Virus record (IMG/VR): IMGVR_UViG_3300005341_000003
Source of the DNA: a virus
Reading direction: 5' to 3' (one strand)
Length of the DNA: 38,331 bases
The position numbers and the translations under genes were made by a program. Below the pieces are notes generated by a model. It was not told the origin of the DNA. It saw only the letters and a program-made list of their open reading frames with translations, and ran no database searches. Each line of letters opens with the position of its first letter. The first letter of the stretch is position 1. Positions 1 to 38,331 of this stretch are shown one piece after another.

Positions 1-75
1 GGTGAGCTGAAAAGCATCTGGGACTGCGGCGCAGGCCAGGACGAGGTTTTCATCGCCGGATCGAAGTTCCCATGA
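1..75 (+). CDS. 3' end of a hypothetical protein gene (duplicate copy of 38212..38286; 5' part outside the left window edge)
   Basis: Identical to the last 75 nt of ORF 38023..38286. Its stop TGA at 73..75 overlaps the ATG at 72. Confidence 0.6.
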   Translation, partial: GELKSIWDCGAGQDEVFIAGSKFP

Positions 76-120
76 CCGAGCAGCAAATCGCAATCTCGCT
101 CGCGGCGCTGGCGTTGGCGA
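1..120. repeat. Exact 120-bp direct repeat of the window end (38212..38331). This is a circularisation overlap or terminal redundancy of a ~38211-bp unit.
   Basis: Base-by-base comparison shows 1..120 identical to 38212..38331. The repeat lies inside coding sequence: the 3' end of ORF 38023..38286 and the 5' end of the small ORF at 72..164. Confidence 0.95.
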
Positions 121-164
121 TCGCGGTATTCGGCATGGCGCTGATGGCGTTGGGGGAGGAGTGA
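72..164 (+). CDS. Small single-pass membrane protein (30 aa), hypothetical
   Basis: ATG at 72 overlaps the upstream stop (ATGA). Stop at 162..164 overlaps the downstream GTG at 161 (GTGA). Peptide [30 protein letters not shown] has a hydrophobic core. It is below the ORF-track cutoff. Confidence 0.5.
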   Translation: MTEQQIAISLAALALAIAVFGMALMALGEE

Positions 165-394
165 AAGCGATTCCCGTCAGCTGCCCCGCATGCGGACACG
201 TGATTTATCCGCTGGTCACTGGCGGCATGATTCGCGAGCTTCGCTTGGCGCACGGAATTCGTCAGTCCGAAGCGGCGCGCGCGATTGGCAAAACGGTCTC
301 GTACATCAGCGACATGGAACGAGGCAGCCGAGACGTGAGCAGAGAATTTTGCGATTGGTACCTGGCAGAGCGCGCGCTGAAGGAGCGCACGTGA
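161..394 (+). CDS. XRE-family helix-turn-helix DNA-binding protein with an N-terminal CxxC motif
   Basis: 77-aa ORF. LRLAHGIRQSEAARAIGKTVSYISDMERG matches the XRE HTH pattern. CPACGH lies at the N-terminus. It is coupled to both neighbours. Confidence 0.7.
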   Translation: MKAIPVSCPACGHVIYPLVTGGMIRELRLAHGIRQSEAARAIGKTVSYISDMERGSRDVSREFCDWYLAERALKERT

Positions 395-786
395 CCCCGC
401 TCACCCCCGAGGATATCGCGACGCGCGATCTCGATGCGAAATCCATCGCGCGTGAGCTCGGCTGCTCGCGCTCGTATGCCTACTCGGTCATGGGTGAGAT
501 TGGCTCCTTCCGCTTCGGCCGCCTCCGCCGCGTCTCACGCTCTGATTTCGACGACTGGAAAGCCGCGCACAAATGCCCAAGCACAAGCTCTGGAAACGCA
601 ACGGGATCTATTACACATGGATCCTCGGCAAGCGCGTCTCTACGGGATGCCGCGACGAGAAGGCTGCGCAGAGCGAGGCGTCCGAGCTCGAGCGAGCAGC
701 AGTGGACCCAAAGTATAAAGCCGCGCACGAAACCAGTTTCGGCACGGCCTGCCAGCTCTTCAAAGAGGAGCTCCAATTGCGGGTGA
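391..786 (+). CDS. xis: Excisionase-family (MerR/HTH_17-like) DNA-binding protein; the 3' 214 nt overlap int in another frame
   Basis: GTG at 391 overlaps the upstream stop (GTGA). LDAKSIARELGCSRSYAYSVMGEIGSFRFGRLRRVSRSDFDDWKAA resembles excisionase-type HTH and lies directly upstream of int. The first in-frame stop is at 784..786, and the tail is Ser/Arg-rich. Confidence 0.55.
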   Translation: MTPLTPEDIATRDLDAKSIARELGCSRSYAYSVMGEIGSFRFGRLRRVSRSDFDDWKAAHKCPSTSSGNATGSITHGSSASASLRDAATRRLRRARRPSSSEQQWTQSIKPRTKPVSARPASSSKRSSNCG

Positions 787-1670
787 CGATGGGCAAGCGC
801 TCGGCGGCCACCGTCGACTTCTACTCGTACAAGCTCGCTCATCTGGTGCGCTTGCTGGGAGCTGACCGCCCGATGTTCGAGGTCAACTCGGCGGCGGTGA
901 GCGGTTACCTGAAGAAGCGCGCGGGCGAAGGCGCGCACGCGAGCTCGATGAACAAGGAGCTCATCGCGCTACGGCAGGTGCTCAAGTACGCGAGGCAGCG
1001 CGGGGACTTCGTCGGTGACATCGACGCCGTGATGCCGATCGGGTTCGATCACGAGTACGAGCCGCGAAAAACCTTTCTCAGCCCGGATCAGGCGTGGGCG
1101 TTGCTCGGCCTGTTCGTGCAGAAGCGCAAGGGGGCTTCGTTGGCGGACGGCATCCTGCTCGCCGCGCGCACCGCGTTCTTTCTTGCCACGGCCTGCCGGG
1201 ACGGCGAGCTCGCCCGGGCCCGCCGCGAGGACATCGACCTGTCCAATTGGCTGGTGACGATCCGAGGCACCAAGACGCGCCTGTCCAAGCGCGTAGCCCC
1301 GGTGGTGCTCCCGGACTGCCGCCGGTTCCTGATTGGCGCCCTGATGGCCCCTGAGCGCCGCGACGGACTGCTCTTCGGCCGGTGGCACAATCCGACCCGT
1401 GACCTGGCCCTGGCCTGCAAGCTAGCCGGCGTGCCGCGCGTCACCCCGAACGACCTCCGCCGAACGCACGCGCATTGGCTTCGGGCCAGCGGCGCCCCGC
1501 CGTCACTCATCGGCCCGGTGCTCGGCCACGCCGATAGCCGCATGACCGAGCGCGTCTACGGACGCTTGGAACCAAGCGAATTGCGAGACGAATTGGCGAA
1601 AAGGACAGGCCAAATTCAGTCCAGCGGCGGCTCTTTAAGCGCAAAACCAGGTAAAAACAGCCATGAATAA
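573..1670 (+). CDS. int: Tyrosine integrase (site-specific recombinase)
   Basis: 365 aa. The N-terminus NGIYYTWILGKRVSTGCRDEKAA is arm-binding-like. Catalytic boxes are ATACRDGELARARREDIDL, RRTHAHWL (HxxR) and LGHADSRMTERVYGR (Tyr). Confidence 0.93.
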   Translation: MPKHKLWKRNGIYYTWILGKRVSTGCRDEKAAQSEASELERAAVDPKYKAAHETSFGTACQLFKEELQLRVTMGKRSAATVDFYSYKLAHLVRLLGADRPMFEVNSAAVSGYLKKRAGEGAHASSMNKELIALRQVLKYARQRGDFVGDIDAVMPIGFDHEYEPRKTFLSPDQAWALLGLFVQKRKGASLADGILLAARTAFFLATACRDGELARARREDIDLSNWLVTIRGTKTRLSKRVAPVVLPDCRRFLIGALMAPERRDGLLFGRWHNPTRDLALACKLAGVPRVTPNDLRRTHAHWLRASGAPPSLIGPVLGHADSRMTERVYGRLEPSELRDELAKRTGQIQSSGGSLSAKPGKNSHE

Positions 1671-6278: not shown

Positions 6279-6428
6279 ATGCCTGATGAATTCGAGTGGA
6301 CCGTCATCGACGGGAGCGGCGCTGTCTGCGGAGCTCGCCGCACCGAAGGCGACGCGCGCGCTCTCGCTCGGATGCTGACTGCCACTTCGCCGCAACGCGG
6401 GCCCTACACGTGGAAAAGGAACCAATGA
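6279..6428 (+). CDS. Hypothetical small protein (49 aa)
   Basis: ATG 6279 has GAGG 5 nt upstream. Its stop 6426..6428 overlaps the helicase ATG 6425 (ATGA). It is below the ORF-track cutoff. Confidence 0.45.
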   Translation: MPDEFEWTVIDGSGAVCGARRTEGDARALARMLTATSPQRGPYTWKRNQ

Positions 6429-7888
6429 GCGAGTCTACCGATTTCGAGCAGGCTAAGGCGCGGAAGAAACGCAACGTCCCCAACTCCGCCGAGCAGCTCA
6501 TGGGGTTGCTACTCACCGACCTCGGCAACGCCGAGCGCTTCGTCCGCCGGTACCGCGGCAAGGTCCGCTACTGCCACGGCCGCAAGCGCTGGCTCATCTG
6601 GGACAAGTGCCGGTGGTCGTGGGACGTGAACGGCCGCGTCGAGCGCCTAGCCAAGAATGTCGTGCGCGACCTGTATCGCGAAGCGGCCGCCTGCCGCGAC
6701 ACGACCGAGCGCTACCAGATTGCTCAGCACGCGCGCGCGAGCGAAAAGACCAGCGCCATTGCCAACATGCTCCGCGCCGCGCAGTCCGAGGAAGGCGTCC
6801 CGGTCGCGTTGGAGGACCTCGATGCCGATTCGCTCCTGCTCAATTGCCAGAACGGCACCATCGACCTCAGCACGGGCAAGTTGCGCCCGCACGACCCGGC
6901 CGACCTCATCACGAAGATGTGCCCATGCAACTTCGACCCGGGCGCCATCAGCGGCGTGTGGGCGAAATTCCTCGCCGACGCGACCGCGGGCGATCTGGAC
7001 CTGCAGGCCTACATCCAGCGCGCAGCCGGCTACGCCATTCAGGGTGACGCCACCGAGCGAGCTCTCTTCTTCACATTCGGCCCTCCCGGCTCGGCCAAGT
7101 CGACGCTCATCGACGCGCTCGGGGCCATGCTCGGCGACTATCACGTCTCGAGCTCGCCCGACACGTGGCTCGTCCAGGCGCAGACCGGTGGCAACCGCGG
7201 TGACCTCGTACGCCTCGCGGGCGCACGGCTGGTCACGGCCGTCGAATTCAAAGCGGGCGCGCGCTTCGACGAGGCGCTCATCAAGGCGGTCACGGGTGGC
7301 GACGAAATCACGGCCGCCGCCAAGTACGAAGCCGAGGTTACCATCCGTCCGACGTTCACGCTCTGGTTTGCCGCCAACGACGCCCCCAGCATCCGCTCAG
7401 ACGACGCCGGCATGTGGGCGAGGATGCGGCGCATGCCCTTCGACCACGTCATCCCCAAGGACCGCCAGGACGCCAGCATCAAGGGCCGCCTCAAGCACGA
7501 CGCCGGCTGCCGCTCGGCGGTGCTCGCCTGGGCCGTGGCCGGGTGTCTCCTGTGGCAAATCAACGGGCTCGGCTCGTCCGCTGCGGTTGAAAAAAGCAAC
7601 AAGGCGTACCAGGCAGAGATGGATCCGGTCGGCGACTTCTTTGAAGACAATTTGGTCTTCGCGGAGGGCGAACAAATCGATCAGGGTGAGCTCCGTCGGC
7701 TCTATGGGGCATGGGCGAAGGAGGAGGGCGTAGTGCGCCCGCTGGGTCGAAAACAGCTCCAGAAAGCGGTCACCGACCGAGGCGGTAGGTACGTGAAAGT
7801 ATTAGGCAAAAGAGTCGTGAAGGGGGTCCGAACAAAGGGGGAGTGGGAGAAGAGTGTCGACCAGGTATCATTGGAGTATGGGGCATGA
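6425..7888 (+). CDS. D5/P4-family primase-associated SF3 helicase (NTPase)
   Basis: TDLGNAERFVRRYRGKVRYCHGRKRWLIWD is a D5_N-type region. Walker A is FGPPGSAKST, and the C-terminus is P4-primase-like. The start is taken at ATG 6425; the upstream extension from 6296 is Arg-rich junk. Confidence 0.88.
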   Translation: MSESTDFEQAKARKKRNVPNSAEQLMGLLLTDLGNAERFVRRYRGKVRYCHGRKRWLIWDKCRWSWDVNGRVERLAKNVVRDLYREAAACRDTTERYQIAQHARASEKTSAIANMLRAAQSEEGVPVALEDLDADSLLLNCQNGTIDLSTGKLRPHDPADLITKMCPCNFDPGAISGVWAKFLADATAGDLDLQAYIQRAAGYAIQGDATERALFFTFGPPGSAKSTLIDALGAMLGDYHVSSSPDTWLVQAQTGGNRGDLVRLAGARLVTAVEFKAGARFDEALIKAVTGGDEITAAAKYEAEVTIRPTFTLWFAANDAPSIRSDDAGMWARMRRMPFDHVIPKDRQDASIKGRLKHDAGCRSAVLAWAVAGCLLWQINGLGSSAAVEKSNKAYQAEMDPVGDFFEDNLVFAEGEQIDQGELRRLYGAWAKEEGVVRPLGRKQLQKAVTDRGGRYVKVLGKRVVKGVRTKGEWEKSVDQVSLEYGA

Positions 7889-9033: not shown

Positions 9034-10485
9034 TCAGCGCGCCGGCCGGTATGCGCCGAGCTTCCGCGCCCGCTGCTCGGCCCGCTTCTTGATGGTCTCG
9101 CGCGTCGCCTTGGCCTCGGCCGCGTACCAGTCCGGTGAGCCGGGCTTGGGCGCCTCGAGCTCCGGTTTGTACCATGTACGCGCAGCTCGCACCCCGTAGA
9201 GCAGCGAGTCGCAGCAGTGGTTCTCGAAGCGCGGATCCTCGGCGACGCGCCCCGGCCCCCACTGCAGCAGGCACATCTCGTCGAGTAGCTGACCGCAATC
9301 GCGCGCCACGATTTTGACCGTGCCACTCCTGAGCTCGCCCTGGACGATTTCCTGGAACGCGCGTTTCTTTGTCTTCTCGGCCGCGACGATGCCAATCCCG
9401 TAGCGTTGGCGCATCTCCTCGGCGTAGCCCTTGCCGAGCCCGCCCTCGTCACCGATAATTTGCAGCCCAGCGCCGAACTCGACGCGCAGGCGCTCCGTGT
9501 GCGCCGCGACCGCGGACGGAATCAGCCCGGTCATGCTCCAACTGCGGAGCACATACACCTCGGGCATGCCGCTCTTCGTGCCGAGGATGGTAAACGCCGT
9601 CGCGTCAGTGAATCCGAAGTCGATGCTCAGGATGTGGCGCAAGCCGTCGGGGACTTGGTCGGGCGTAACCGCGTTCAGCGCCGCCGAATACGGGTACACG
9701 AGCGCGCCCTCGTCGCGCACCCATTCACCGAGGTACTCACGACGGAACGTCGCCGAGCTCTGGTCGAGCCCGTACGTCTCACAGAACAGCGCGATCTCGT
9801 GCTTCGCGTCCGGGATATGCGGGTTGTCGAGGATGGTCCAGTGGTGCGTGGGCCATGCAGGCGAACCGTCGCCCGTGCTCACCTCGTAGAATAGGCCGGC
9901 CGGGATGGGGCTCGGTGTGCCCGCGAGCAGCAGGTGCCCGGCCTTGTCGATGAGCGCCGGCTCGATGCTGTCCGTGATGAGCTCGCGCAGCCAGACGCCG
10001 TACTCCTGCGCCTCGTCGATTGCCGCGCGCTTGTACTTGCTGCCGCGGAACTTGCCGACCTCGGACTTGTCTTTGCAGCCCGCGAGCCAAATAGTGTGCC
10101 GCGTCAGGCCGACCATGAGCAGCAGCTGCCCGTCGACCTCGCGAAGCCGCAGCTGCAGCTCGGGGTAGCGCTGCGCGAAGTAGTCGATGGCCGGCTGCAG
10201 AATGCGGCGCGCGTCACCCTTCGAGCGCGCGATGTACACGCTGAGCCCGGCCGGGTCGGAGAGCGCTCCGTCGATGAGCCACGCGAGGATGCCGTGCGAC
10301 TTGCCGGCGCGGCGGGAGCAGACGGCGACCTTGCGGCGTGACGGGTCACAGACGAACGCGCGCTGCTTTGGGTGCAAATCGCCCAGGAACCGGCGGGCCT
10401 TGCGGACATCGTTCGCCGTGTTGATTCGGCGCTCGAGCTCCCCGCGAAGCTCCGGCGGCAGCTGGGCGATTTGCGCGGGGGTCAC
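9034..10485 (-). CDS. terL: Terminase large subunit
   Basis: Walker A-like CSRRAGKSHG, Walker B AAIDEAQEY, and a C-terminal RNaseH-like nuclease region (ILSIDFGFTD, IIGDEGG, CCDSLLYG). The start is taken at GTG 10485, which overlaps the upstream stop (GTGA). The ORF track extends to 10536. Confidence 0.9.
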   Translation of the reverse strand: MTPAQIAQLPPELRGELERRINTANDVRKARRFLGDLHPKQRAFVCDPSRRKVAVCSRRAGKSHGILAWLIDGALSDPAGLSVYIARSKGDARRILQPAIDYFAQRYPELQLRLREVDGQLLLMVGLTRHTIWLAGCKDKSEVGKFRGSKYKRAAIDEAQEYGVWLRELITDSIEPALIDKAGHLLLAGTPSPIPAGLFYEVSTGDGSPAWPTHHWTILDNPHIPDAKHEIALFCETYGLDQSSATFRREYLGEWVRDEGALVYPYSAALNAVTPDQVPDGLRHILSIDFGFTDATAFTILGTKSGMPEVYVLRSWSMTGLIPSAVAAHTERLRVEFGAGLQIIGDEGGLGKGYAEEMRQRYGIGIVAAEKTKKRAFQEIVQGELRSGTVKIVARDCGQLLDEMCLLQWGPGRVAEDPRFENHCCDSLLYGVRAARTWYKPELEAPKPGSPDWYAAEAKATRETIKKRAEQRARKLGAYRPAR

Positions 10486-10748
10486 TCGCTCACGATTTTG
10501 ACGGATGCGCGCGTCACCGCGGCGTCGGGCACCCAATAGGTCTCGCCCGTGTTCGGACTGTGGTAAGCGAACCCGCCCGAGTAGCGCTCGATTGGGCGCT
10601 CGTTGGTGGCGGTGATCACAGGCTCACCGTCGAGGTTGTGCTGTAGCGACAAGGCGAGAAAGATCACCTTCGTCTTCGGCACCGCTGGCGCTTGCGTGCC
10701 CGCCGCCAGATTCGATTTCCTCGCCGCTTGTTTCGTAGCTTCGTCCAT
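10482..10748 (-). CDS. Hypothetical protein (up to 88 aa) between terS and terL; start uncertain
   Basis: The stop overlaps the terL GTG. The 5' 125 nt overlap the terS 3' end in another frame. Alternative in-frame GTG starts lie at 10667 and 10619. Confidence 0.4.
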   Translation of the reverse strand: MDEATKQAARKSNLAAGTQAPAVPKTKVIFLALSLQHNLDGEPVITATNERPIERYSGGFAYHSPNTGETYWVPDAAVTRASVKIVSE

Positions 10749-12147: not shown

Positions 12148-12224
12148 TGGCACAACTTGTCACGCGGATTTGCGTGGCGTTTCTGGATTACCTGCGCCAG
12201 AGTGTGTCACGCAAGAATGGCACA
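12148..12224. promoter_or_regulatory. Paired motifs in the divergent late control region (TGGCACA and TGTCACGC, each twice, in swapped order)
   Basis: TGGCACA occurs at 12148..12154 and 12218..12224. TGTCACGC occurs at 12158..12165 and 12205..12212. All lie in the ~140-bp gap between the GroES-like gene (-) and the portal gene (+). Confidence 0.25.
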
Positions 12225-12267
12225 GACCGGCCAGCTGAAATGGCATCAGCTCGACAAGGGAGCCGAA

Positions 12268-14160
12268 ATGGCTCGCGAACTTGTCGCACTGTGCATTGCG
12301 CTGCAGACCGAGCAGAAGCCGCGCAAGACGCGCTGCCGCGACGCAGCGAGCCGATACGAGATGCGTCGGCTGGGCGGCCTATCGCCGGGCGCGTACTACC
12401 GTTCCGGCGCCTACTCGGGCTCCGATGGCGGGGCATCGCTAGTTTGGCCCGAGGAGCGCAGCATCGCGAACGCCGCGCAGGCCAAGCTCGCTGGACAGCA
12501 AAAGCCGAAGGTCCAATTCGTCACCAGCGATTCGGACTGGCAGACCAAGCGCAAGAGCAAGAAGCTCGACCGGTTCGTCGAGGGGCAGTTCATGCAGGCG
12601 ATCGGCAGCTACGCCGACGTGTGGCAGCTCATGCTCCGCGTGTTCCTCGATGCCTGCGTGTTCCCGACCGGCGGCGCCGTCAAGGTGTTTGCCGACGAGG
12701 AGGACGGGCGCGTCAGCTATGAGCGCGTGTTCACCTGGGAGCTCTTCGTTGACCCGCTCGAAGCGCGCTATGGCCAGCCGCGTAACAAGTTTCACGTCTA
12801 CCCGTACGACCGCGACGAGCTGATCGAAAAGTTCCCCGAGCAGAAAGACGCGCTCGAGCGCGCCCCCGAATACGTCGAGGAGGGCGAAGCCGAGTGGACC
12901 GGCACGAAGCGCATCTCGAATCAGATCCGCGTGTGCGAGGCGTGGCGACTGCCGTTCAGCAAGAACAAGCCTGGGCGCCACGTGATCGCGGTGAATGATG
13001 CCGTGCTCGTCGACGAGGATTGGACCCGCAACGAGTTCCCCTTCATCGAGATCCATTGGTCGAAACACCTCGTCGGCTCCGATGGCACATCGCTTGTCGA
13101 GGAAGTCGCGAGCATCGCCGACGTGGTGAACGACACCGTTCAGCGGATGCAGGACTCGCACAAGCGCACGAGCATGGGCGTGCTCTGCTACGAGGAGGGC
13201 TCGCTGCGTGAGGAGGATCTCCGCACGAATGAGGATGGCATCAATCTGCGCAGCGCGCCGGGCAAGGCGCCGCCGACGTATCAGCAGCCCATCCCGTTCG
13301 GCCCGGCCAACGTGCAATTCCTGCAGATGAATCAGGCCGAGCTCCACGACATTTCCGGCGTGTCCGAGATGCTGACGAGCGGCGACAAGCCAGCGGGGCT
13401 CACGGCCGCCGTTGCGATTCGAGCAACCGAAGATGTCCAGAGCAAACGCTTCAGCGTCATTTATCGCTCGTACGAAGAGAGCTTCGTGTCGCTGGCTCGT
13501 CACACTGTGGCTTGCACTCGCGAGCTGTACGCACAAAACAAGAACTTCGAATCACGCTGGACCGGAAAGGGTTTTCTCAAGACCCTGAAGTGGCGTGACG
13601 TGGACCTCGAGGATGACCGCTACGTCATCCAGATCTACCCGGTCGGCGAGGTGAAGAACACGCCGGCCGATCGCCTGCAGCTCATCCAAGAGATGAACGC
13701 GGCGGGCAAGGTCAGCGACGAGAGCCTCATCGAGGTCATCAAGTACCTCGACTCCTCGAAGGAGCTCGAATCGGTCAGCCGCCAGCGCGAGCTCGTCGAG
13801 AGCTACGTAGACCAATGGCTCGACGCGACGCCCGAGGCCGAGCAAGAGGGCACGTTCCGCTACCGCCCGCCGATCCCGTGGATGCCATCGCTGCCCGATG
13901 CGCTCGTGCAGGTCGCGCAAGCGTACCTCGAGGCCGAGATGGACGACGTGCCGGATTTCAATAAGGACTTCTTCCTGCGCTTCATGCAGGAGGTCGACCT
14001 CGAGATCCAAAAGAAGGAAGCGCGCGCCGCCGCGAACGCCGCCGGCAAACCGATGGCGCCGCAAGCTGACATGGGCGCGCCCGGCGCTCCGGCCGGTCCG
14101 ATGCCGCCGCCCGGTCCGCCCGGCGCTGGCGCCCCACCCCCACTCCAATTGGTGCAGTGA
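12268..14160 (+). CDS. Portal protein (putative)
   Basis: 630-aa first gene of the structural operon, followed by scaffold and capsid genes. ATG 12268 has AAGGGAG 5 nt upstream. The ORF track's start at 12157 lacks an RBS. Confidence 0.72.
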   Translation: MARELVALCIALQTEQKPRKTRCRDAASRYEMRRLGGLSPGAYYRSGAYSGSDGGASLVWPEERSIANAAQAKLAGQQKPKVQFVTSDSDWQTKRKSKKLDRFVEGQFMQAIGSYADVWQLMLRVFLDACVFPTGGAVKVFADEEDGRVSYERVFTWELFVDPLEARYGQPRNKFHVYPYDRDELIEKFPEQKDALERAPEYVEEGEAEWTGTKRISNQIRVCEAWRLPFSKNKPGRHVIAVNDAVLVDEDWTRNEFPFIEIHWSKHLVGSDGTSLVEEVASIADVVNDTVQRMQDSHKRTSMGVLCYEEGSLREEDLRTNEDGINLRSAPGKAPPTYQQPIPFGPANVQFLQMNQAELHDISGVSEMLTSGDKPAGLTAAVAIRATEDVQSKRFSVIYRSYEESFVSLARHTVACTRELYAQNKNFESRWTGKGFLKTLKWRDVDLEDDRYVIQIYPVGEVKNTPADRLQLIQEMNAAGKVSDESLIEVIKYLDSSKELESVSRQRELVESYVDQWLDATPEAEQEGTFRYRPPIPWMPSLPDALVQVAQAYLEAEMDDVPDFNKDFFLRFMQEVDLEIQKKEARAAANAAGKPMAPQADMGAPGAPAGPMPPPGPPGAGAPPPLQLVQ

Positions 14161-15350: not shown

Positions 15351-16616
15351 ATGGCCTCAACTCTGGCGCAATTCGACGCATTTCTCAAAGACTACTACAC
15401 CAAAGACAAGATCGACGACCTGACCAAGAAGGACCGACCATTCTTCGGCATGGTCACGCGTGAGGAAGATCTCGGCGGCGATCAGTACGTCCACCCCTTC
15501 ATCTTCCAGAATCCGCAAGGCTTCGGCGCGACGCTCGCCAAGGCGCAGCAAGGTTCACAGCAAGGATCCGGCAACGGCAACTTGCAGGGCCGCAAATGGA
15601 AGGTCGCGTACGGCGACTACAGCGCGTCAGTCGAAATCGGCGACAAGGTCATCAAAGCATCGCGCTCGAACGTCGGCGCATTCCTCCGTGACCAAGAGAC
15701 GGAAATCAACGGCCTGTACAACGGTTTCGGCGACACCTTCTCGACGTACCTGTACGGCAACGGCGGCCAGGCGCTCGGCTCGTTCACCATCTCGAGCGGC
15801 GTGTGCACGCTCGTCAACGCCGATGACATCGTCAACTTCGAGGTCGGGCAAATCCTCGTCGTTTCCGCGAACGACGGCTCCGATTCCTCGCACATCCTGA
15901 TTGCCAGCTCTGCTCAGGGCTTCGTGGTCAGCGTCGACCGCAACGCGGGCACGTTCAGCGTTTCGGCGACTTCTGGAGGATCGGTGGCAACGCCGACCAA
16001 CTGGACTGGCACGATGTTCGGCTTCCGCGACGGCGACTTCGGCGGCTCGGGCGCGACGCGCATCTTGCTCGGGCTCGGCGCATGGATCCCCGCGGCGGCC
16101 CCGACCTCGACGACGTTCGAGAACATCAACCGCACGGTCGACTCCGCGCGCATGTCCGGCATCCGCCTGACGAGCGCGGAAATCGCGAGCGTGACGCTCG
16201 AGCAGCGCCTCAAGCGCCTGGTGACGCGCATGCGTGGCCGCAACTTCGGTCCCGGCCCGGACGCGGTGTTCCTGAACCCCGAGAAGTGGCAAAACGTGGC
16301 CGACTCGCTCGAGTCGCGCGGCTACCGAGAGATCGGCGCGAATGCCGAGTTCGGCTACGAGAACATCACGTTCAAGGCCGGCGGCAAGACGGTCAAGCTC
16401 TACGCGGATCCGTTCTGCCCGATCGGTACCGCGTTCGCGCTGAAGATGGACACCGTCAAGCTCGGTGGCCTCAGCAAAATCCCCGAGGTCGTCAATGGTG
16501 ACGGGCTCGAAATGCTCCGCAAGGTCGCGAGCAACGACTACGAATACCGCCTGGTCGCGTACCCGGCTTTCGTGGTTGCTGCCCCGGGCTTCTGCGGTCG
16601 CGTCGCAACGACCTGA
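15351..16616 (+). CDS. Major capsid protein (putative)
   Basis: 421 aa, directly after the scaffold gene. Composition and size are typical of HK97-fold coat proteins. No motif-level proof. Confidence 0.72.
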   Translation: MASTLAQFDAFLKDYYTKDKIDDLTKKDRPFFGMVTREEDLGGDQYVHPFIFQNPQGFGATLAKAQQGSQQGSGNGNLQGRKWKVAYGDYSASVEIGDKVIKASRSNVGAFLRDQETEINGLYNGFGDTFSTYLYGNGGQALGSFTISSGVCTLVNADDIVNFEVGQILVVSANDGSDSSHILIASSAQGFVVSVDRNAGTFSVSATSGGSVATPTNWTGTMFGFRDGDFGGSGATRILLGLGAWIPAAAPTSTTFENINRTVDSARMSGIRLTSAEIASVTLEQRLKRLVTRMRGRNFGPGPDAVFLNPEKWQNVADSLESRGYREIGANAEFGYENITFKAGGKTVKLYADPFCPIGTAFALKMDTVKLGGLSKIPEVVNGDGLEMLRKVASNDYEYRLVAYPAFVVAAPGFCGRVATT

Positions 16617-32186: not shown

Positions 32187-32956
32187 CACTCGCCACCGAT
32201 CCGCTTCTCGAGTTCGGTGAGGGCCTCGTTGGCTTTCGACCATGCGTCATGTTGCATGTTACCGATGCCCTGTCGCATCGTCGCAACCAGCTCCCGCGTG
32301 CTCGGCTGCTGGGGCGCGGACGGCGGCAGTAGGTCGTCAGTGGAAAGCGGCGGAATGATGCCAGCACGCTCTAGTGCCTGAACAAGCGCAAAGTCGCAGG
32401 CCAGTGCGCCCGCGGGGTATTCTTCAGAATCCCGGTCAGCCCAAGCGCGCAACGCCTCGAGCAGATACGGCGCCTCCGTCAGAGCTTCGGGCTTGGCCTG
32501 CTCAGCTGCGCGGGCCGCGCAGGACTCGCAAAGCGTCGCAGGCCGCGAGCAGCCTCCGCTCAAACACGGCCGCGGTGCCTCAGCTGCGCGGGCGCGATAA
32601 CCATAGAGATAGCCGTCTTCGTAACCGGGGCGACGCATCAACCAATCAGGCTCGAAATTGTCCCTCGCGAAGGCGTCGCGCGCCTCTCGCTCAATGTCGT
32701 CAGTCATCGCTCGCGCGCCTCCAGTCAGCGTCCGCAGCGGCCAGTTCGGCATGCACGCCTCGCACTGACACTCGCTGGTATGGGCATCGCCGGTTCGGCG
32801 CTCGGGCTTGAGCTGCTCAGCTGCGCGGACGGCATCAAAAACCGCCAGCACCTCAGTGACCTGTGATGAATCCACGTCGTCTGTTTGCGTCTCGTCATTC
32901 CAGGTCGACAGGCCGAGCGCCTGCAGCAGCTGCATCGCGAGAGCTTCGTCAGTCAT
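32186..32956 (-). CDS. Hypothetical protein (256 aa) with Cys clusters, downstream of recT
   Basis: Long coupled ORF with the motifs SECQCEAC and CLSGGCSRPATLCESC. No nuclease motif was recognised. Confidence 0.6.
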   Translation of the reverse strand: MTDEALAMQLLQALGLSTWNDETQTDDVDSSQVTEVLAVFDAVRAAEQLKPERRTGDAHTSECQCEACMPNWPLRTLTGGARAMTDDIEREARDAFARDNFEPDWLMRRPGYEDGYLYGYRARAAEAPRPCLSGGCSRPATLCESCAARAAEQAKPEALTEAPYLLEALRAWADRDSEEYPAGALACDFALVQALERAGIIPPLSTDDLLPPSAPQQPSTRELVATMRQGIGNMQHDAWSKANEALTELEKRIGGE

Positions 32957-33921
32957 CGGTCGAAATCGTCCGCTGGGTCATGGTCATGCTCCTCGCGATT
33001 GGCGCCGGCAAAGTCGCCGCTGGCGTGCGCCACACCCTCCGCACTCGGCGCCAGCTCCTTCTCGAGCTTCGCGCACTGGCGATTGCAATGCTGCCAAATC
33101 TTGCTCAGCTCCTTGTGCTGCTCCGGCGTGATGGCGCGCGCTTCCTTCGCGGCCTGCACGTCGCGCGTCAGCTGGCTTTGCTTGCCGGCGCTGCCGAGGA
33201 TTTCGCGCAGCTGTAGCGCCTTGTCGTAACTGTCGACGACTTGTAGGAATGCCTTCGCGGCTTCCATGCGGCGGAGCAGTTCGGCGGCCACGTCGGGGTC
33301 AGCCGCGCTCGGCATCTCGTCTTCGTCCGGGTGCGAATGCGGCGAGATGGCGCGGACCTGCGGCTCGAAACTCACCACCTCGCCGCCCTCCGTCGTGATC
33401 GCGCCGACCTCGTCCGGGTCGAGCATGCCCATTGTTGCGTCCGGGAACACGGCGCGCGAAGCCATCGCGAGGCAACGGGCGCGCAGCATCGCCGCCGGGT
33501 ACTTCTTCCAATTGTCCTTGCCAACGAGTCCCGCCGCGCGCGCGTCCGCCATCGAGAACCGGAAGAGCGTCGCCTGTTGGCCCTGCCGCCCGGCTTCAAC
33601 GGTACACTCCTCGTTCGATGTTGACGCGACTCGGAGCAGCGAGCCAGGAAGGCGAGCGAGCACGAGGCCGGCCATGAGCTCTGCGGACATGGTCGGCTTG
33701 CCCTCGATGACGTGAATCGAACGGAGAGCCTGCATGGGCCCGATGCCGAGCTCGCGGCCCGTTTGGATGATCGCGATGGCCTTCTCGGGCGTGTCAACGG
33801 CGCGCGGGAGCAGGCGAGACTTGACCAGCGCCTCGGCTTGCTGGCGCATCACCTCCCAGTCGCGCATGGGGTCGCGCTCGATATGCGCGGGGTCGACTTT
33901 GGCTAGAGCGCGGTCGTTCAT
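32953..33921 (-). CDS. recT: RecT-like single-strand annealing protein (putative)
   Basis: LLPRAVDTPEKAIAIIQTGRELGIGPMQALRSIHVIEGKPTMSAELMAGL and NWKKYPAAMLRARCLAMASRAVFPD resemble conserved RecT-family blocks. Recognised from memory only. Confidence 0.6.
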   Translation of the reverse strand: MNDRALAKVDPAHIERDPMRDWEVMRQQAEALVKSRLLPRAVDTPEKAIAIIQTGRELGIGPMQALRSIHVIEGKPTMSAELMAGLVLARLPGSLLRVASTSNEECTVEAGRQGQQATLFRFSMADARAAGLVGKDNWKKYPAAMLRARCLAMASRAVFPDATMGMLDPDEVGAITTEGGEVVSFEPQVRAISPHSHPDEDEMPSAADPDVAAELLRRMEAAKAFLQVVDSYDKALQLREILGSAGKQSQLTRDVQAAKEARAITPEQHKELSKIWQHCNRQCAKLEKELAPSAEGVAHASGDFAGANREEHDHDPADDFDR

Positions 33922-36045: not shown

Positions 36046-36051
36046 ACAGGT

Positions 36052-36081
36052 ACAGGTTAATGAACCTGAACCACTTGGCAA
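36052..36081 (-). promoter_or_regulatory. PL-like promoter with an embedded operator (OL)
   Basis: On the minus strand the order is TTGCCA (36081..36076), N16, TAACCT (36059..36054), N8, ATG. The 21-bp block 36052..36072 is the perfect reverse complement of 36542..36562. Confidence 0.5.
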
Positions 36082-36113
36082 TGGCAAATCGTACTTGGCC
36101 GGGTCGATTTCTG

Positions 36114-36485: not shown

Positions 36486-36491
36486 GCGACG

Positions 36492-36515
36492 ATCATACCG
36501 TTCAGGTTCTTTAAC
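36492..36515 (-). promoter_or_regulatory. PRM-like -10 element plus a third operator copy
   Basis: On the minus strand, TATGAT (36497..36492) is followed by N6 and then the repressor ATG, which implies a leaderless mRNA. GTTCAGGTTCTTTAAC at 36500..36515 matches the operator at 15 of 16 positions. Confidence 0.35.
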
Positions 36516-36532
36516 GGGGATGACGATTTCGG

Positions 36533-36562
36533 TTGCAGATCGGTTCAGGTTCATTAACCTGT
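36533..36562 (+). promoter_or_regulatory. PR-like promoter with an embedded operator (OR)
   Basis: The order is TTGCAG (36533..36538), N16, TAACCT (36555..36560), N9, ATG 36570, with no SD. The operator core is GGTTCAGGTTCATTAACC, made of GGTTCA twice followed by an inverted GGTTAA. Confidence 0.5.
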
Positions 36563-36569
36563 CACAACA

Positions 36570-36821
36570 ATGACTGGCCCCGAACTTCTGACAGAGTTTT
36601 TGACCGCCGAGGCGGTCTCCAGGAACGACTGCGCAGAGCGCCTGCGGGTGAGCCGCACAGCGCTCTATTACTGGCTGACCGGAGAGACAGCCCCGGGACA
36701 GGCGGTGCGCGAGGAAATCGCTGCTTGGACGCGGGGGAAGGTACCCGCCGAATCGTGGGGCCCTCCCACCGATCATCGGAAAAAGCGTGACCCCGGCGCC
36801 GAACCCGAATCGGAGGCGTGA
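36570..36821 (+). CDS. Cro-like HTH regulator (83 aa)
   Basis: SRNDCAERLRVSRTALYYWLTGE is an HTH. It is the first gene divergent from the repressor. Confidence 0.65.
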   Translation: MTGPELLTEFLTAEAVSRNDCAERLRVSRTALYYWLTGETAPGQAVREEIAAWTRGKVPAESWGPPTDHRKKRDPGAEPESEA

Positions 36822-36822
36822 C

Positions 36823-37110
36823 ATGGCTGCGAAACGTAGCGCAGAAATGCCACACGGGGTCGGCCGTAGAATGTCCGGTCGGAAAAAAGAGCGGCAGATT
36901 ATTGCTGTTGCACTTTTGCGCGCCGTGTCTGCCGCGAAGGCGACGAACGCTGAGGCGGCGCGATGGCTCGGCATTTCCGAGCGGACGATGCACGCCTGGT
37001 CGCACCTGCGCACGCCGGTGAATGTCGAAATCGTTCTGGCGTGTCCGCAGTTGCGCGAGCGGTTCCGCGAGGAGCTTTGCGTTCATAACCATGGGGAGGC
37101 TGCGAAATGA
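36823..37110 (+). CDS. HTH DNA-binding protein (95 aa), second early regulator
   Basis: ATG 36823 lies 2 nt after the upstream stop. [18 protein letters not shown] is an HTH. Confidence 0.55.
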
Positions 37111-37310
37111 AGCTGCGCATCGTGCCTCCCTGCAACAGGTCGCTGCCTGCCTGGTCGGTCGCAATCCGCGCGCGGCGGCTCGAACTCGGGCTGACGCAAG
37201 ACGAGGCCGCGCTGCGGTGGGGCGTGGCGCCGCGCACGATTCGCCACTGGGAAGCTGGAATCGGAGATGGGCGCATGTTGGCGGCGTTTTTGGGGCTGAA
37301 GGCGGCTTGA
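37107..37310 (+). CDS. XRE-family HTH protein (67 aa), third early regulator
   Basis: [32 protein letters not shown] is a classic XRE HTH. It is ATGA-coupled. Confidence 0.62.
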
Positions 37311-37321
37311 AAGGCGGAGTG

Positions 37322-38026
37322 ATGATCGAGATTTTGCACCGGTACACGAAGGCGGTTTTGTACAAGGCTGAAGCTGCTGAATCCGTGAAGGATGCAGTGG
37401 CGGAGGCGGTCAGATCCGACGCGAACCTGGGCGGCGCGGACCTGCGCGGCGCGAACCTGGGCGACGCGAACCTGCGCGGCGCGAACCTGCGCGGCGCGAA
37501 CCTGTACGACGCGAACCTGTACGACGCGGACCTGGGCGGCGCGGACCTGCGCGGCGCGAACCTGCGCGGCGCGGACCTGCGCGGCGCGGACCTGTACGGC
37601 GCGAACCTGCGCGGCGCGGACCTGCGCGGCGCGGACCTGTACGGCGCGAACCTGCGCGGCGCGGACCTGGGCGGCGCGGACCTGGGCGATCTGCGAAATT
37701 CGATGCTTGGGGGCGACGCGCCCGATGCTATCGAGCTACGCGCCAAGGTCGCGGCCCACATCGAAGCTCACCCGGAGCTGCATGACCAGAGCGAATGGGG
37801 CGACGGAAAGCCCGACCCCACATGCGGGACACCGTGTTGCGTCGCGGGGTGGGCGTGTCACCTGGGCGGTGGCGATCGCGGGCTCGGCGTGGCGACGGCG
37901 GCTACGCTGTTGCTCACGGCTCCGGGTGTCGATAACCCGAGCTTCGACGCTGGAGTCTCGCGCGAGGAGATTCTGCGCGTGCTGCGGCAGGTGCCGGCGA
38001 CTGGCGCGGAAGGCGGTGCTTCGTGA
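37322..38026 (+). CDS. Pentapeptide-repeat protein with a C-terminal Cys-rich domain
   Basis: ATG 37322 has AAAGGCGGAG upstream. It has 19 consecutive A(D/N)LxG-type pentapeptides, then [35 protein letters not shown]. Confidence 0.9.
37418..37702 (+). repeat. 15-nt tandem coding repeat (about 19 units) encoding the pentapeptide array, including an exact 45-nt tandem duplication
   Basis: The unit is gcgRacctgNNcgRc. 37553..37597 is identical to 37598..37642 ([15 protein letters not shown], twice). Confidence 0.92.
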
Positions 38027-38286
38027 GCTACGTGTATGCAGCGGAGCGCGCGGAGATATTCACCGAATCTGGGCAGATCGCGTTCCTGAAGATTCGCGAC
38101 AACGCGCATCGTATTATCAAGGCGAGCGGCGCGGCGACGATGGGGAAGCTGATGATCGGGACCGGAAGCAGCTGGACCCTCATGGCTTGCGTGCATCGAC
38201 TGGTCGAGATCGGTGAGCTGAAAAGCATCTGGGACTGCGGCGCAGGCCAGGACGAGGTTTTCATCGCCGGATCGAAGTTCCCATGA
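38023..38286 (+). CDS. Hypothetical protein (87 aa)
   Basis: GTG 38023 overlaps the upstream stop (GTGA). The gene runs into the terminal repeat. Confidence 0.55.
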
Positions 38287-38331
38287 CCGAGCAGCAAATC
38301 GCAATCTCGCTCGCGGCGCTGGCGTTGGCGA
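38212..38331. repeat. Exact 120-bp direct repeat of the window start (1..120)
   Basis: See the feature at 1..120. Confidence 0.95.
38283..38331 (+). CDS. 5' part of the small membrane protein gene (duplicate of 72..120, truncated by the window end)
   Basis: Identical to 72..120. Confidence 0.4.
   Translation, partial: MTEQQIAISLAALALA

What the first reader, a model, noticed from the sequence alone, without database searches (positions are those of the whole stretch)
37322..38026. Early-operon pentapeptide-repeat protein fused to a Cys-rich domain: candidate DNA mimic / anti-defence factor
**Seen in the sequence**
- There are 19 uninterrupted A(D/N)LxG pentapeptides, encoded by 15-nt tandem units.
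- The array contains an exact 45-nt duplication, 37553..37597 = 37598..37642.
- The array is followed by a ~110-aa domain carrying [12 protein letters not shown].
- The gene is the fourth in the PR-like early operon, directly behind three HTH regulators.
- It is translationally chained to the genes that continue across the genome junction.

**Established knowledge**
Pentapeptide-repeat proteins such as Qnr, MfpA and AlbG form right-handed quadrilateral beta-helices. These mimic B-DNA and bind gyrase.

**Inference**
A phage producing such a protein at the very start of infection could use it as a DNA-mimic decoy, either against restriction or other DNA-sensing defences, or to modulate a host topoisomerase. 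The perfect internal duplication suggests that the repeat number is evolving quickly.
Basis: partly seen in the sequence, partly recalled or inferred. Interest (0 to 1): 0.72.

Follow-up and report, generated by a model that had tools for sequence, protein, structure and literature searches.

The report
Early phage pentapeptide-repeat protein, unknown Cys domain
A temperate phage encodes, near the start of its early operon, a beta-helix repeat protein fused to a conserved, phage-specific domain of unknown function. It is most likely a host-takeover or counter-defence factor, but the idea that it mimics DNA is only weakly supported.

Summary
**Observation: real.** Window 37322..38026 (+) encodes a 234-aa protein with three parts:
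- an N-terminal cap (aa 1-33);
- a 111-aa C-terminal domain carrying [12 protein letters not shown].

**Setting.** The window is a complete ~38.2-kb temperate phage genome with a 120-bp terminal repeat. The gene follows three small HTH-like genes and is chained by overlapping stop and start codons to the genes that run on to xis and int.

**C-terminal domain.**
- It is the conserved part of the protein, with signature P-x4-Q...C-G-T-x2-C-x-A-G-W.
- It matches 1,138 50%-identity clusters, mostly stand-alone ~120-140-aa proteins.
- It has no Pfam or NCBIfam family, and a confident model (pLDDT 92) finds no PDB fold match.

**Repeat array.**
- It is the variable part: 4-34 repeats across the family.
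- Near-identical relatives have 13, 18 and 23 repeats, and their differences fall only at outward-facing positions.
- Array charge is mixed: -4 here, 0 in the closest relative.
- Scores against the Qnr and MfpA models are far below cutoff.

**Reading.** DNA mimicry or gyrase binding is weak. An early counter-defence or host-factor-binding role is plausible: the gene sits early in unrelated phages, and Vibrio phage 24 gp60, a pentapeptide-repeat protein, counters a RexAB-like system.

**Verdict.** This is a new member of a catalogued but uncharacterised family.

The parts
37322..38026 (+). Gene for the 234-aa pentapeptide-repeat plus Cys-domain protein. The alternative start is TTG 37307. The stop is TGA 38024-38026.
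   Evidence: Translation. Pfam Pentapeptide E = 7.3e-39. PHROG 31265 matches aa 2-184, E = 1.3e-26.
37322..37420 (+). N-terminal cap of the beta-helix (aa 1-33, [33 protein letters not shown]): two short strands plus a helix.
   Evidence: AF2 model gives E2-6, E12-16 and H22-31 at pLDDT 91-96. The same cap occurs in many phage pentapeptide proteins.
37421..37690 (+). Array of 18 perfect 15-nt units encoding A(D/N)L(R/G/Y)(G/D), about 4.5 coils of a quadrilateral beta-helix.
   Evidence: Every Ala codon is GCG and every Leu codon is CTG; all variation sits in codons 2, 4 and 5.
37553..37642 (+). Exact 45-nt (3-unit) tandem duplication inside the array.
   Evidence: One search shows the two 45-mers are identical. 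One search shows the longest exact repeat is 73 nt at offset 45.
37691..38023 (+). C-terminal ~110-aa alpha-helical domain (aa 124-234), the conserved module of the family.
   Evidence: A1 and A4 alignments. 1,138 representative clusters match at E <= 1e-3. AF2 pLDDT 91.9. No Pfam, NCBIfam or PDB match.
37772..37858 (+). Signature core of the domain, aa 151-179 ([29 protein letters not shown]). Family-wide invariant residues are P151, Q156, C168, T170, C173, A175, G176 and W177.
   Evidence: Column frequencies over 173 sequences.
36570..36821 (+). First small gene of the rightward operon (83 aa). It is a weak HTH match and cro-like by position only.
   Evidence: HTH_31 E = 0.002, below cutoff. 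It is not conserved in relative L009.
36823..37110 (+). Second small gene (95 aa), a weak Xre-like HTH. It is co-inherited with the pentapeptide gene in L009.
37107..37310 (+). Third small gene (67 aa), a solid HTH_3 regulator. It is co-inherited with the pentapeptide gene in L009.
   Evidence: HTH_3 E = 5.9e-8, 33.1 bits against a cutoff of 23.
38023..38286 (+). Downstream 87-aa gene of unknown function. Its start overlaps the pentapeptide gene's stop (GTGA).
   Evidence: No PHROG, Pfam or PADLOC match. L009 has a different gene (DUF551) at this position.
38283..38331 (+). Start of a 30-aa hydrophobic peptide gene ([30 protein letters not shown]). It continues across the genome closure and equals window 72..164.
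391..786 (+). Xis-like HTH_17 gene that continues the same rightward gene string after the junction.
   Evidence: PHROG 66 excisionase E = 4.3e-7. HTH_17 E = 4.9e-6. Coordinates.
573..1670 (+). Tyrosine integrase.
   Evidence: PHROG 1 E = 3.2e-42. Pfam Phage_integrase plus SAM-like N domain.
38212..38331 (.). 120-bp terminal direct repeat, identical to window 1..120. It marks a closed, complete ~38.2-kb genome.

Best explanation
**What it is (shown).** An early accessory protein of a temperate phage, built from three modules:
- a capped right-handed quadrilateral beta-helix of 18 pentapeptides;
- a short linker;
- a conserved ~100-aa alpha-helical domain with two invariant cysteines (C-G-T-x-x-C at the N-terminus of a helix), an invariant Gln and an invariant Trp.

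**How it most likely works (inferred).** It is made among the first proteins after infection or induction and acts by binding a host protein. The likely target is a defence sensor or effector, or a DNA-handling enzyme. That makes it a host-takeover or counter-defence factor.
- The conserved C-terminal domain carries the constant function: target engagement and/or dimerisation, possibly through a shared metal or redox site built from the Cys pair.
- The beta-helix is a rigid module of variable length. Its outward-facing residues are reshuffled by recombination between near-identical 15-nt units, which gives a fast-evolving interaction or evasion surface.
- Electrostatic imitation of DNA is not required by this model and is not conserved in the family.
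For: - **Structure.**
  - Pentapeptide Pfam and PDB sequence matches.
  - The AF2 model shows one strand every five residues.
  - The C-terminal domain model has pLDDT 91.9.
- **Phage origin.**
  - The window encodes primase, terminase, portal, capsid, RecT, integrase and Xis.
  - The homologues examined lie in phage-like contigs.
  - The stand-alone domain occurs in 57 actinophage records.
  - Only 2 loci were found among one genome for each of 185,579 species.
- **Early position recurs in unrelated phages.**
  - Here it is the fourth gene of the rightward operon.
  - In Ralstonia phage RpY1 it is the first gene opposite a cI-like repressor.
  - In L001 it is the first gene of a divergent operon followed by RecT.
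  - In L002 it lies directly upstream of ERF.
  - In T7-like RsoP1IDN it lies in the left-end early region.
- **A conserved domain with variable repeats** (except where noted). Among the 171 proteins classified:
  - 45 are pentapeptide array plus domain, with 4-24 repeats; an IMG/VR locus has 34.
  - 106 are the domain alone.
  - 4 carry the domain in tandem.
  - 1 has the domain first and the repeats after it.
- **Arms-race-like pattern against the close relative L009**.
  - The C-terminal domain shows 22 synonymous and 2 non-synonymous codon differences.
  - The aligned array shows 20 amino-acid differences in 90, all at positions 2, 4 and 5, and no synonymous change.
  - Repeat counts are 13, 18 and 23 among proteins with 98% identical flanks.
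- **Experimental precedent.**
  - Vibrio phage 24 gp60 has 8 pentapeptides with the same A(N/D)L(R/Y)(G/D) alphabet, 87% identical over 38 aa.
  - It counteracts the RexAB-like Sucellos system, and escape mutations map at positions 110-115, C-terminal to its eight repeats.
Against: - There is no functional data for this family, and the target is unknown.
- The C-terminal domain of phage 24 gp60 is unrelated, so that precedent covers only the repeat module, which has low complexity.
- Surface-restricted variation could result from unequal recombination and relaxed constraint rather than positive selection.
- Part of the repeat-number variation could be assembly collapse, since 6 of 12 related contigs break inside the array.
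- No PADLOC match was found and no known anti-defence family was hit.
- The link to upstream HTH genes is lineage-specific.
- No promoter was detected by the sigma-70 scan, so 'early' rests on gene order.
Confidence: 0.45

Rival explanations
1. **Topoisomerase-directed pentapeptide protein, like Qnr, MfpA, McbG or AlbG.** It would bind host gyrase or topoisomerase IV, either to modulate supercoiling for phage replication or to protect gyrase from a host toxin or poison.
For: - It has the pentapeptide beta-helix fold, with PDB sequence matches to Qnr, MfpA and McbG-like proteins at E = 1e-13 to 1e-2.
- Phages are known to encode other gyrase modulators (PMC10886550).
- A C-terminal module could mediate dimerisation as in Qnr and MfpA.
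- Some homologues sit beside recombination and replication genes.
Against: - It scores 40 bits against MfpA (cutoff 360) and 30 bits against Qnr (cutoff 240).
- The array is uninterrupted, with none of the loops that interrupt the repeats in Qnr proteins (my recollection; not checked here).
- Repeat number is highly variable (4-34), and charge ranges from acidic to basic.
- The conserved part of the family is the non-pentapeptide domain, which often occurs alone.
Confidence: 0.15
2. **DNA-mimic decoy.** The beta-helix would imitate B-DNA and titrate restriction-modification, BREX or other DNA-sensing defences.
For: - The whole protein is acidic, net -12 with pI 4.8.
- It is in an early position.
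- In P22-like ST104, a pentapeptide gene lies between ral (anti-restriction) and gene 17.
- Phage 24 gp60 counters a RexAB-like system. RexA is thought to sense DNA-protein complexes.
Against: - The array carries 9 Arg against 13 Asp, and the per-face net charge is +1, -2, -3 and 0.
- The array of the closest relative is neutral, and family arrays range from acidic to basic.
- 18 repeats make only about 4.5 coils, and some members have a single coil.
- Most of the negative charge lies in the C-terminal domain.
- McbG and QnrB do not inhibit BREX.
Confidence: 0.1
3. **The C-terminal domain is a thiol-dependent enzyme or a metal/redox module.** In this reading the repeats only target or scaffold it. 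The function could be metabolic or could modify a phage or host macromolecule.
For: - C168, C173, Q156, T170 and W177 are invariant.
- C173 lies at the N-terminus of a helix, a common position for nucleophilic or redox cysteines.
- There is a motif-level resemblance to the CGNGxRC active-site loop of DapF-type racemases, but it is not significant (E = 0.3-1).
- Tandem two-domain variants suggest a dimer that could build a 4-Cys site.
Against: - The family has no invariant His or Asp.
- No fold or sequence match to any enzyme was found.
- The domain is small (~100 aa) and all-helical.
Confidence: 0.12
4. **Lysis-lysogeny accessory or superinfection-exclusion function.** The protein would act with the HTH regulators or the Xis/Int module, or would protect the lysogen from other phages.
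For: - HTH2, HTH3 and the pentapeptide gene move as one cassette at about 92-97% nt identity, while both flanks differ between the window and L009.
- xis and int follow in the same gene string.
- The domain model has a weak structural hit to a protein annotated 'RDF' (recombination directionality factor) in Mycobacterium phage Henry (E = 0.09, TM 0.56).
Against: - Homologues occur in lytic T7-like phages without an integrase.
- Homologues also occur in contexts without HTH neighbours.
- The RDF hit is not significant and its annotation was not verified.
- No PADLOC defence model matches.
Confidence: 0.1

Closest known systems
Vibrio phage 24 gp60 (SBVc24_0060), a pentapeptide-repeat protein reported to counter the RexAB-like Sucellos abortive-infection system (bioRxiv 10.1101/2024.07.02.601686)
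   Same: - It is a phage-encoded, small, non-structural protein.
- It has a short array of near-perfect 15-nt units using the same A(N/D)L(R/Y)(G/D) alphabet, 87% identical over 38 aa.
- The array is followed by a non-repeat C-terminal domain.
   Different: - Its C-terminal domain is unrelated; BLASTP aligns only the repeats.
- It has 8 repeats rather than 18, and a different N-terminus.
- Its function was shown for that protein only.
PHROG 31265 (full length) and PHROG 889 / 30739 (C-terminal domain alone), with GenBank homologues such as Ralstonia phage RpY1_018 and RsoP1IDN gp4, Mycobacterium phage Corndog gp98 and Omega gp104
   Same: - They show sequence homology to the whole protein or to the domain.
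- The Ralstonia phage proteins have the same architecture.
- The Ralstonia genes lie early in the genome.
   Different: - All are annotated as hypothetical or 'putative pentapeptide repeat protein', so they add no functional knowledge.
- The domain of the Ralstonia proteins aligns with the family profile only around the CGTxxCxAGW motif (29 columns). RsoP1IDN gp4 reads GALDMGVWH where the PELHDQ segment would be.
Qnr / MfpA / McbG / AlbG pentapeptide-repeat proteins (gyrase-protecting, proposed DNA mimics)
   Same: They share the right-handed quadrilateral beta-helix built from A(D/N)LXX repeats.
   Different: - Scores are far below the family cutoffs.
- The array is perfect, homogeneous at the nucleotide level and variable in number, whereas my recollection is that Qnr and MfpA have fixed, degenerate repeats and a short dimerisation helix (not checked here).
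- A 110-aa Cys-containing domain occupies the C-terminus here.
- The array surface has mixed charge.
P22-like early-left-operon pentapeptide genes (ST104 orf19; phage L / ST64T orf232)
   Same: - They are early-operon accessory pentapeptide genes in temperate phages, lying next to ral and gene 17.
- Repeat number differs by a 15-bp indel between phages that are otherwise more than 99.9% identical (PMC8022706).
   Different: Only the repeat region of the query (aa 33-106) matched in tblastn. Their function is also unknown.
Ocr / ArdA DNA-mimic anti-restriction proteins
   Same: They are early-expressed, acidic phage or plasmid proteins proposed to act as decoys.
   Different: - Their folds are unrelated.
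- By my recollection (not computed here) they are far more uniformly acidic, with charges arranged to imitate DNA phosphates, whereas this array carries 9 Arg and is neutral in the closest relative.

Membership tests
Pentapeptide repeat family (Pfam PF00805) | Tandem A(D/N)LXX pentapeptides that score above the Pfam gathering threshold | tested here: met
   131.3 bits against a cutoff of 20.2, E = 7.3e-39. There are 18 perfect units.
Pentapeptide repeat family (Pfam PF00805) | Right-handed quadrilateral beta-helix fold | tested here: met
   The AF2 model has one strand or bridge every 5 residues across aa 39-120. pLDDT is 60-91 in the array, lowest in the middle. The protein matches solved pentapeptide structures by sequence at up to E = 1.9e-42.
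Qnr family (NCBIfam NF033086) | Score above the curated family cutoff | tested here: not met
   30.2 bits against a cutoff of 240.
Qnr family (NCBIfam NF033086) | Protection of gyrase or topoisomerase IV from quinolones | not testable with these tools
   This needs supercoiling and MIC assays.
MfpA (NCBIfam NF000349) | Score above the curated family cutoff | tested here: not met
   40 bits against a cutoff of 360.
DNA-mimic proteins (functional class: Ocr, ArdA, MfpA) | An elongated surface dominated by negative charge in a DNA-like pattern, conserved among relatives | tested here: not met
   Tested from sequence only.
- The array has 13 Asp and 9 Arg, with face net charges of +1, -2, -3 and 0.
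- The relative L009 has net charge 0.
- The family ranges from -0.92 to +0.75 per repeat.
- No 3-D electrostatic map could be computed.
DNA-mimic proteins (functional class: Ocr, ArdA, MfpA) | Competes with DNA for a DNA-binding enzyme | not testable with these tools
   This needs biochemical work.
PHROG 31265 / 889 / 30739 (uncharacterised phage protein families) | A significant profile match over the relevant region | tested here: met
   - PHROG 31265: E = 1.3e-26 over aa 2-184.
- PHROG 30739: E = 1.4e-12 over aa 137-186.
- PHROG 889: E = 1.9e-10 over aa 138-188.
Phage 24 gp60-type anti-Sucellos protein | Homology to the gp60 C-terminal part, where the escape mutations map | tested here: not met
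   BLASTP aligns only the pentapeptide arrays.
Known anti-phage defence proteins (PADLOC-DB) | A match to any defence-system model | tested here: not met
   No family matched at E <= 0.01, either for the protein, its C-terminal domain or the downstream gene.

The most novel reading that the evidence does not exclude
**Proposed reading.** The 'pentapeptide array plus P-x4-Q...CGTxxCxAGW domain' proteins would be a widespread, undescribed class of immediate-early phage counter-defence factors.

- **Conserved domain.** It has a fold with no match in the PDB. It may form a Cys2-plus-Cys2 metal or redox site in a dimer, and it would engage a conserved host target.
- **Variable beta-helix.** It is attached to the domain and acts as a built-in hypervariable surface.
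  - Its units are kept identical at the nucleotide level, so recombination keeps reshuffling a small alphabet: 2 x 3 x 2 = 12 possible units.
  - Recombination also changes the helix length in frame.
  - This would be a contingency-locus-like way to evade or retarget host immune recognition.
Probability: 0.2. Interest if true: 0.75.

Novelty: new member of a known kind. Interest (0 to 1): 0.45.

Why it matters
- **Common but almost unstudied.** Pentapeptide-repeat genes are frequent in phage early regions. tblastn found them in 337 phage records. Only one has functional support.
- **The conserved part is the domain, not the repeats.**
  - In this subfamily the conserved element is an unnamed Cys-containing domain that matches more than 1,000 50%-identity clusters.
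  - Its predicted fold is confident and has no PDB match.
  - It is a good target for structural and functional work and for a new Pfam entry.
- **A testable model of surface variation.**
  - The array shows in-frame repeat-number changes.
  - Its variation is confined to outward-facing residues, while the adjacent domain is under purifying selection.
  - This is a testable model for recombination-driven surface variation in a phage protein.
- **A caution for annotation.** 'Pentapeptide repeat, therefore DNA mimic or quinolone resistance' should not be transferred automatically to phage genes.

Tried and rejected
- **Megablast** of 24.9 kb of the window against 50,697 phage records found no match, so no named close relative exists.
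- **Sigma-70 promoter and intrinsic terminator scan** of 35800-38331 found nothing useful: one weak minus-strand site and no terminators. Operon structure therefore rests on gene spacing alone.
- **Function of the C-terminal domain.** None of these searches gave a hit:
  - Pfam, NCBIfam and PADLOC on the domain and on 23 distant homologues.
  - Foldseek against the PDB, best E = 7.4.
  - Profile against PDB sequences, where only non-significant DapF-type motif hits appeared.
  - Foldseek against viral models, which gave only weak hits to uncharacterised actinophage proteins and one protein labelled 'RDF'.
- **The 'RDF' hit.** I tried to inspect Mycobacterium phage Henry by a guessed accession, which was wrong. 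This was not pursued.
- **HTH-plus-pentapeptide cassette as a general, aca/acr-like feature.** Rejected, because neighbours of the homologues examined in L001, L002 and L008 showed no HTH match.
- **Contig-end location as a sign of a genome terminus.** Rejected, because those contigs break inside the array.
- **Diversity-generating retroelement as the source of AAC/GAC variation.** Considered unlikely, because codon 4 varies among CGC, GGC and TAC, which is not adenine-specific. No dedicated reverse-transcriptase search was run.
- **The 334-aa in-frame ORF from 37022, and the long antisense or alternative-frame ORFs across the array** (36562..37761 on the minus strand; 37392..38216 on the plus strand). 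I regard these as artefacts of GC-rich repeats.
Full report

Yes. The ORF at 37322..38026 (+) encodes 234 aa.
- **Repeats.**
- Residues 34-123 are 18 consecutive perfect A(D/N)Lxx pentapeptides.
  - Tandem Repeats Finder reports period 15, 17.9 copies and 88% matches. It also reports a period-45 superstructure at 91% matches.
  - Pfam Pentapeptide scores 131 bits against a cutoff of 20.2.
- **Duplication.** 37553..37597 equals 37598..37642 exactly, and identity at offset 45 runs for 73 nt.
- **C-terminal domain.** Residues 124-234 contain [12 protein letters not shown].
- **Upstream genes.**
  - Three small genes precede it: 36570..36821, 36823..37110 and 37107..37310.
  - Only the third passes the Pfam HTH_3 threshold. 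The other two match HTH models weakly.
- **Chaining.**
  - The first two genes are 1 nt apart.
  - The junctions at 37107 (ATGA), 38023 (GTGA) and 38283 (ATGA) overlap stop and start.
- **Start codon.**
  - It could be ATG 37322, which matches homologues that begin MIEIL.
  - It could instead be TTG 37307, which overlaps the upstream stop as TTGA and is the start called on a close relative.

**2. What is the window?**

- Its first and last 120 nt are identical. It is therefore a closed, complete genome of about 38.2 kb.
- It encodes these phage proteins:
  - primase/helicase at 6296..7888;
  - large terminase at 9034..10536 (-);
  - portal at 12157..14160;
  - major capsid protein at 15351..16616;
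  - RecT-like protein at 32953..33921 (-);
  - Xis-like protein at 391..786;
  - tyrosine integrase at 573..1670.
- It is a temperate phage with no close relative among 50,697 GenBank phage records.
- After the pentapeptide gene the same-strand gene string continues as follows:
  - an 87-aa gene;
  - a 30-aa hydrophobic peptide that spans the closure;
  - xis and int;
  - nucleases and the primase.

**3. Anatomy of the protein**

- **Full-length model.**
  - AF2 gives mean pLDDT 78.
  - It shows a two-strand-plus-helix N-cap at pLDDT 91-96.
  - It shows a beta-helix with one strand per pentapeptide, followed by a helical C-terminal part.
- **C-terminal domain model.**
  - Modelled alone with a 44-sequence alignment, the domain gives pLDDT 91.9 and pTM 0.84.
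  - The model is a five-helix domain, with the second invariant Cys immediately before helix 174-181.
- **Fold searches.**
  - Foldseek finds nothing in the PDB; the best hit has E = 7.4.
  - In BFVD it finds only weak hits, mainly to uncharacterised phage proteins, several from actinophages.
- **Sequence searches.**
  - A profile search of PDB sequences gives only non-significant motif hits.
  - Pfam, NCBIfam and PADLOC do not recognise the domain.
  - PHROGs does, as families 31265, 889 and 30739, all of unknown function.

**4. The family**

- **Close homologues.** A word-indexed search with the domain found 26, at 57-74% identity, with 1-16 repeats in front.
- **Wider search.**
  - An exhaustive profile search of 1.84 billion representative proteins found 1,138 clusters at E <= 1e-3.
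  - The 171 proteins classified, the listed representatives plus the 26 close homologues, break down as follows:

| Architecture | Count |
|---|---|
| N-terminal pentapeptide array plus domain (4-24 repeats) | 45 |
| Domain alone (~120-140 aa) | 106 |
| Two domains in tandem | 4 |
| Domain first, repeats after | 1 |

- **Other fusions.** Some variants carry Ala-rich or Cys-rich repeats instead of pentapeptides.
- **Invariant residues.** Family-wide these are P151, Q156, C168, T170, C173, A175, G176 and W177.
- **Names in the databases.** A second indexed search returned only 'hypothetical protein', 'pentapeptide repeat protein' or 'YjbI with pentapeptide repeats'.
- **Phage records.**
  - tblastn with the domain finds 57 actinophage records, all annotated hypothetical.
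  - The Ralstonia phage proteins RsoP1IDN gp4 and RpY1_018 share the architecture.
  - The RsoP1IDN gp4 domain aligns with the family profile around the CGT motif at 96.5% probability.

The conserved, and presumably function-defining, part is therefore the C-terminal domain. The pentapeptide array is an exchangeable module.

**5. Genomic context elsewhere**

- **L001.** The gene is first in a divergent operon that goes on to RecT.
- **L002.** It lies directly upstream of ERF.
- **L008.** It lies in a small-gene block next to the terminase and portal of a Mu-like head module.
- **L006.** A repeat-less variant sits among small genes of a 184-kb phage-like contig.
- **RpY1.** It is the first gene opposite a cI-like repressor.
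- **RsoP1IDN (T7-like).** It lies 3.5 kb from the left end, before the primase.
- **ST104 (P22-like).** A pentapeptide gene lies between ral and gene 17 in the PL operon. Only its repeat region matched the query.
- **Cellular genomes.** A scan of one genome for each of 185,579 species found only two loci, both on MAG contigs. That scan relied on narrow sequence patterns.

The family is phage-borne and repeatedly sits at or near the start of early transcription units. An HTH neighbour is not a general feature.

**6. Evolution of the array**

- **The close relative L009.**
  - IMG/VR contig L009 carries the same block of second HTH gene, third HTH gene and pentapeptide gene at about 92-97% nt identity.
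  - Both flanks are unrelated, so the block is a mosaic cassette.
  - Its protein has 23 repeats against 18 in the window.
- **Other relatives.**
  - P0185 has a 98% identical domain and 13 repeats. Its array equals the L009 array with ten internal units removed.
  - P0182 has a 95% identical domain but a different N-cap and array.
  - P0004 and P0178 differ by 35 aa, the length of seven repeats.
- **Window against L009**.
  - The C-terminal domain shows 22 synonymous and 2 non-synonymous codon differences.
  - The aligned array shows 20 amino-acid differences in 90, all at pentapeptide positions 2, 4 and 5, which are the outward-facing ones.
  - Every Ala codon is GCG and every Leu codon is CTG in both arrays.
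  - The arrays are thus built from a small alphabet: N/D x R/G/Y x G/D.
- **Generality.**
  - Near-perfect 15-nt arrays (80-93% matches) occur in most of the phage pentapeptide genes examined, including ST104 orf19 and phage 24 gp60.
  - Phages L and ST64T differ by a single 15-bp repeat (PMC8022706).
- **Caveat.** Six of 12 related IMG/VR contigs terminate inside the array, so short-read assemblies handle these arrays poorly. Some count differences may be collapse artefacts.

**7. Testing the DNA-mimic and gyrase idea**

- **Charge in this protein.**
  - The array has 13 Asp, 9 Arg and 4 Tyr, net -4.
  - Assigning units to the four faces gives net +1, -2, -3 and 0.
  - More of the protein's net -12 lies in the C-terminal part (-7) than in the array (-4).
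- **Charge in relatives.**
  - L009's array is neutral.
  - Over 45 family members, array charge per repeat runs from -0.92 to +0.75, with a median of -0.22.
- **Length.** It varies from one coil to more than eight.
- **Family scores.** NCBIfam MfpA and Qnr scores are 40 and 30 bits, against cutoffs of 360 and 240.
- **Literature.** McbG and QnrB fail to inhibit BREX (PMC7261183).

DNA-like electrostatics are therefore not a conserved property. The protein is not a member of the Qnr or MfpA families. Mimicry by this particular protein is not excluded, but nothing here points to it.

**8. What supports a counter-defence or host-takeover role?**

- **Position.** The gene sits early in unrelated phages (section 5).
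- **Evolution.** The surface varies quickly while the adjacent domain is under purifying selection (section 6).
- **Precedent: Vibrio phage 24 gp60.**
  - gp60 has eight pentapeptides with the same alphabet and an unrelated C-terminal part.
  - Phage mutants that escape the RexAB-like Sucellos system carry changes at positions 110-115, C-terminal to the repeats.
  - Deleting gp60 makes the phage highly sensitive to Sucellos (bioRxiv 10.1101/2024.07.02.601686).
  - This is an analogy, not homology of the functional part.

**9. Verdict**

- The structural call is secure.
- The 'early accessory or anti-defence' reading is plausible. It is my preferred mechanism at moderate confidence.
- The DNA-mimic or gyrase mechanism is weakly supported.
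- The protein is a new member of a catalogued but uncharacterised phage family.
- The points of real interest are the unnamed conserved Cys domain with no known fold relative, and the recombination-shuffled beta-helix surface.

Noticed in passing
window 1..120 and 38212..38331: There is an exact 120-bp direct terminal repeat. The window is a closed, complete phage genome of about 38.2 kb, so genes at its end continue at its start.
   Followed up: yes
window 36823..38026 versus L009 1478..2875: The second HTH gene, the third HTH gene and the pentapeptide gene form one block conserved at about 92-97% nt identity with an IMG/VR relative. The gene upstream (first HTH) and the gene downstream are unrelated between the two. 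This is a mosaic cassette boundary on both sides. L009 also has a ~140-nt insertion between the two HTH genes.
   Followed up: partly
L011, L012, L013, L014, L016, L017 (IMG/VR contigs): Six of 12 related viral contigs begin inside the pentapeptide array. These tandem 15-nt arrays systematically break short-read assemblies, so such genes are probably under-counted or truncated in viral databases.
   Followed up: yes
L010 2342..5717: One 39-kb viral contig carries at least five separate stretches of pentapeptide arrays over ~3.4 kb. The last but one belongs to a 314-aa member of this family with 34 repeats. This looks like a cluster of several pentapeptide genes.
   Followed up: no
P0022, P0041 and P0006, P0035, P0029 (homologues): The same conserved domain is fused to repeats other than pentapeptides. 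P0022 and P0041 have C-terminal Cys-rich CSDCS-type repeats. P0006 and P0035 have N-terminal Ala/Asp-rich repeats. The domain seems to be combined with many kinds of repeat scaffold.
   Followed up: no
window 36562..37761 (-), 37392..38216 (+), 37022..38026 (+): Long spurious ORFs of 399, 274 and 334 aa run through the GC-rich repeat array in other frames, or extend the real frame upstream. They could mislead gene callers.
   Followed up: partly
window 391..786 and 573..1670: The Xis-like ORF overlaps the integrase ORF by about 210 nt. Both lie downstream of the early regulators on the same strand, so integration and excision genes appear to sit in the rightward early gene string.
   Followed up: no
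window 9034..10536 (-) versus 12157..14160 (+): The large terminase gene is on the opposite strand to the portal and capsid genes, which is an unusual divergent arrangement for a packaging module.
   Followed up: no
Foldseek hit G1D2E5: The C-terminal domain model weakly resembles (E = 0.09, TM 0.56) a 147-aa protein annotated 'RDF protein' in Mycobacterium phage Henry. This is intriguing because xis and int follow the gene here, but the hit is not significant and the annotation was not verified.
   Followed up: no
L002 4997..5671 and L009 2955..3299: DUF551 proteins, a phage early-region family of unknown function, lie next to the pentapeptide gene in two unrelated loci: upstream in L002 and downstream in L009.
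   Followed up: no
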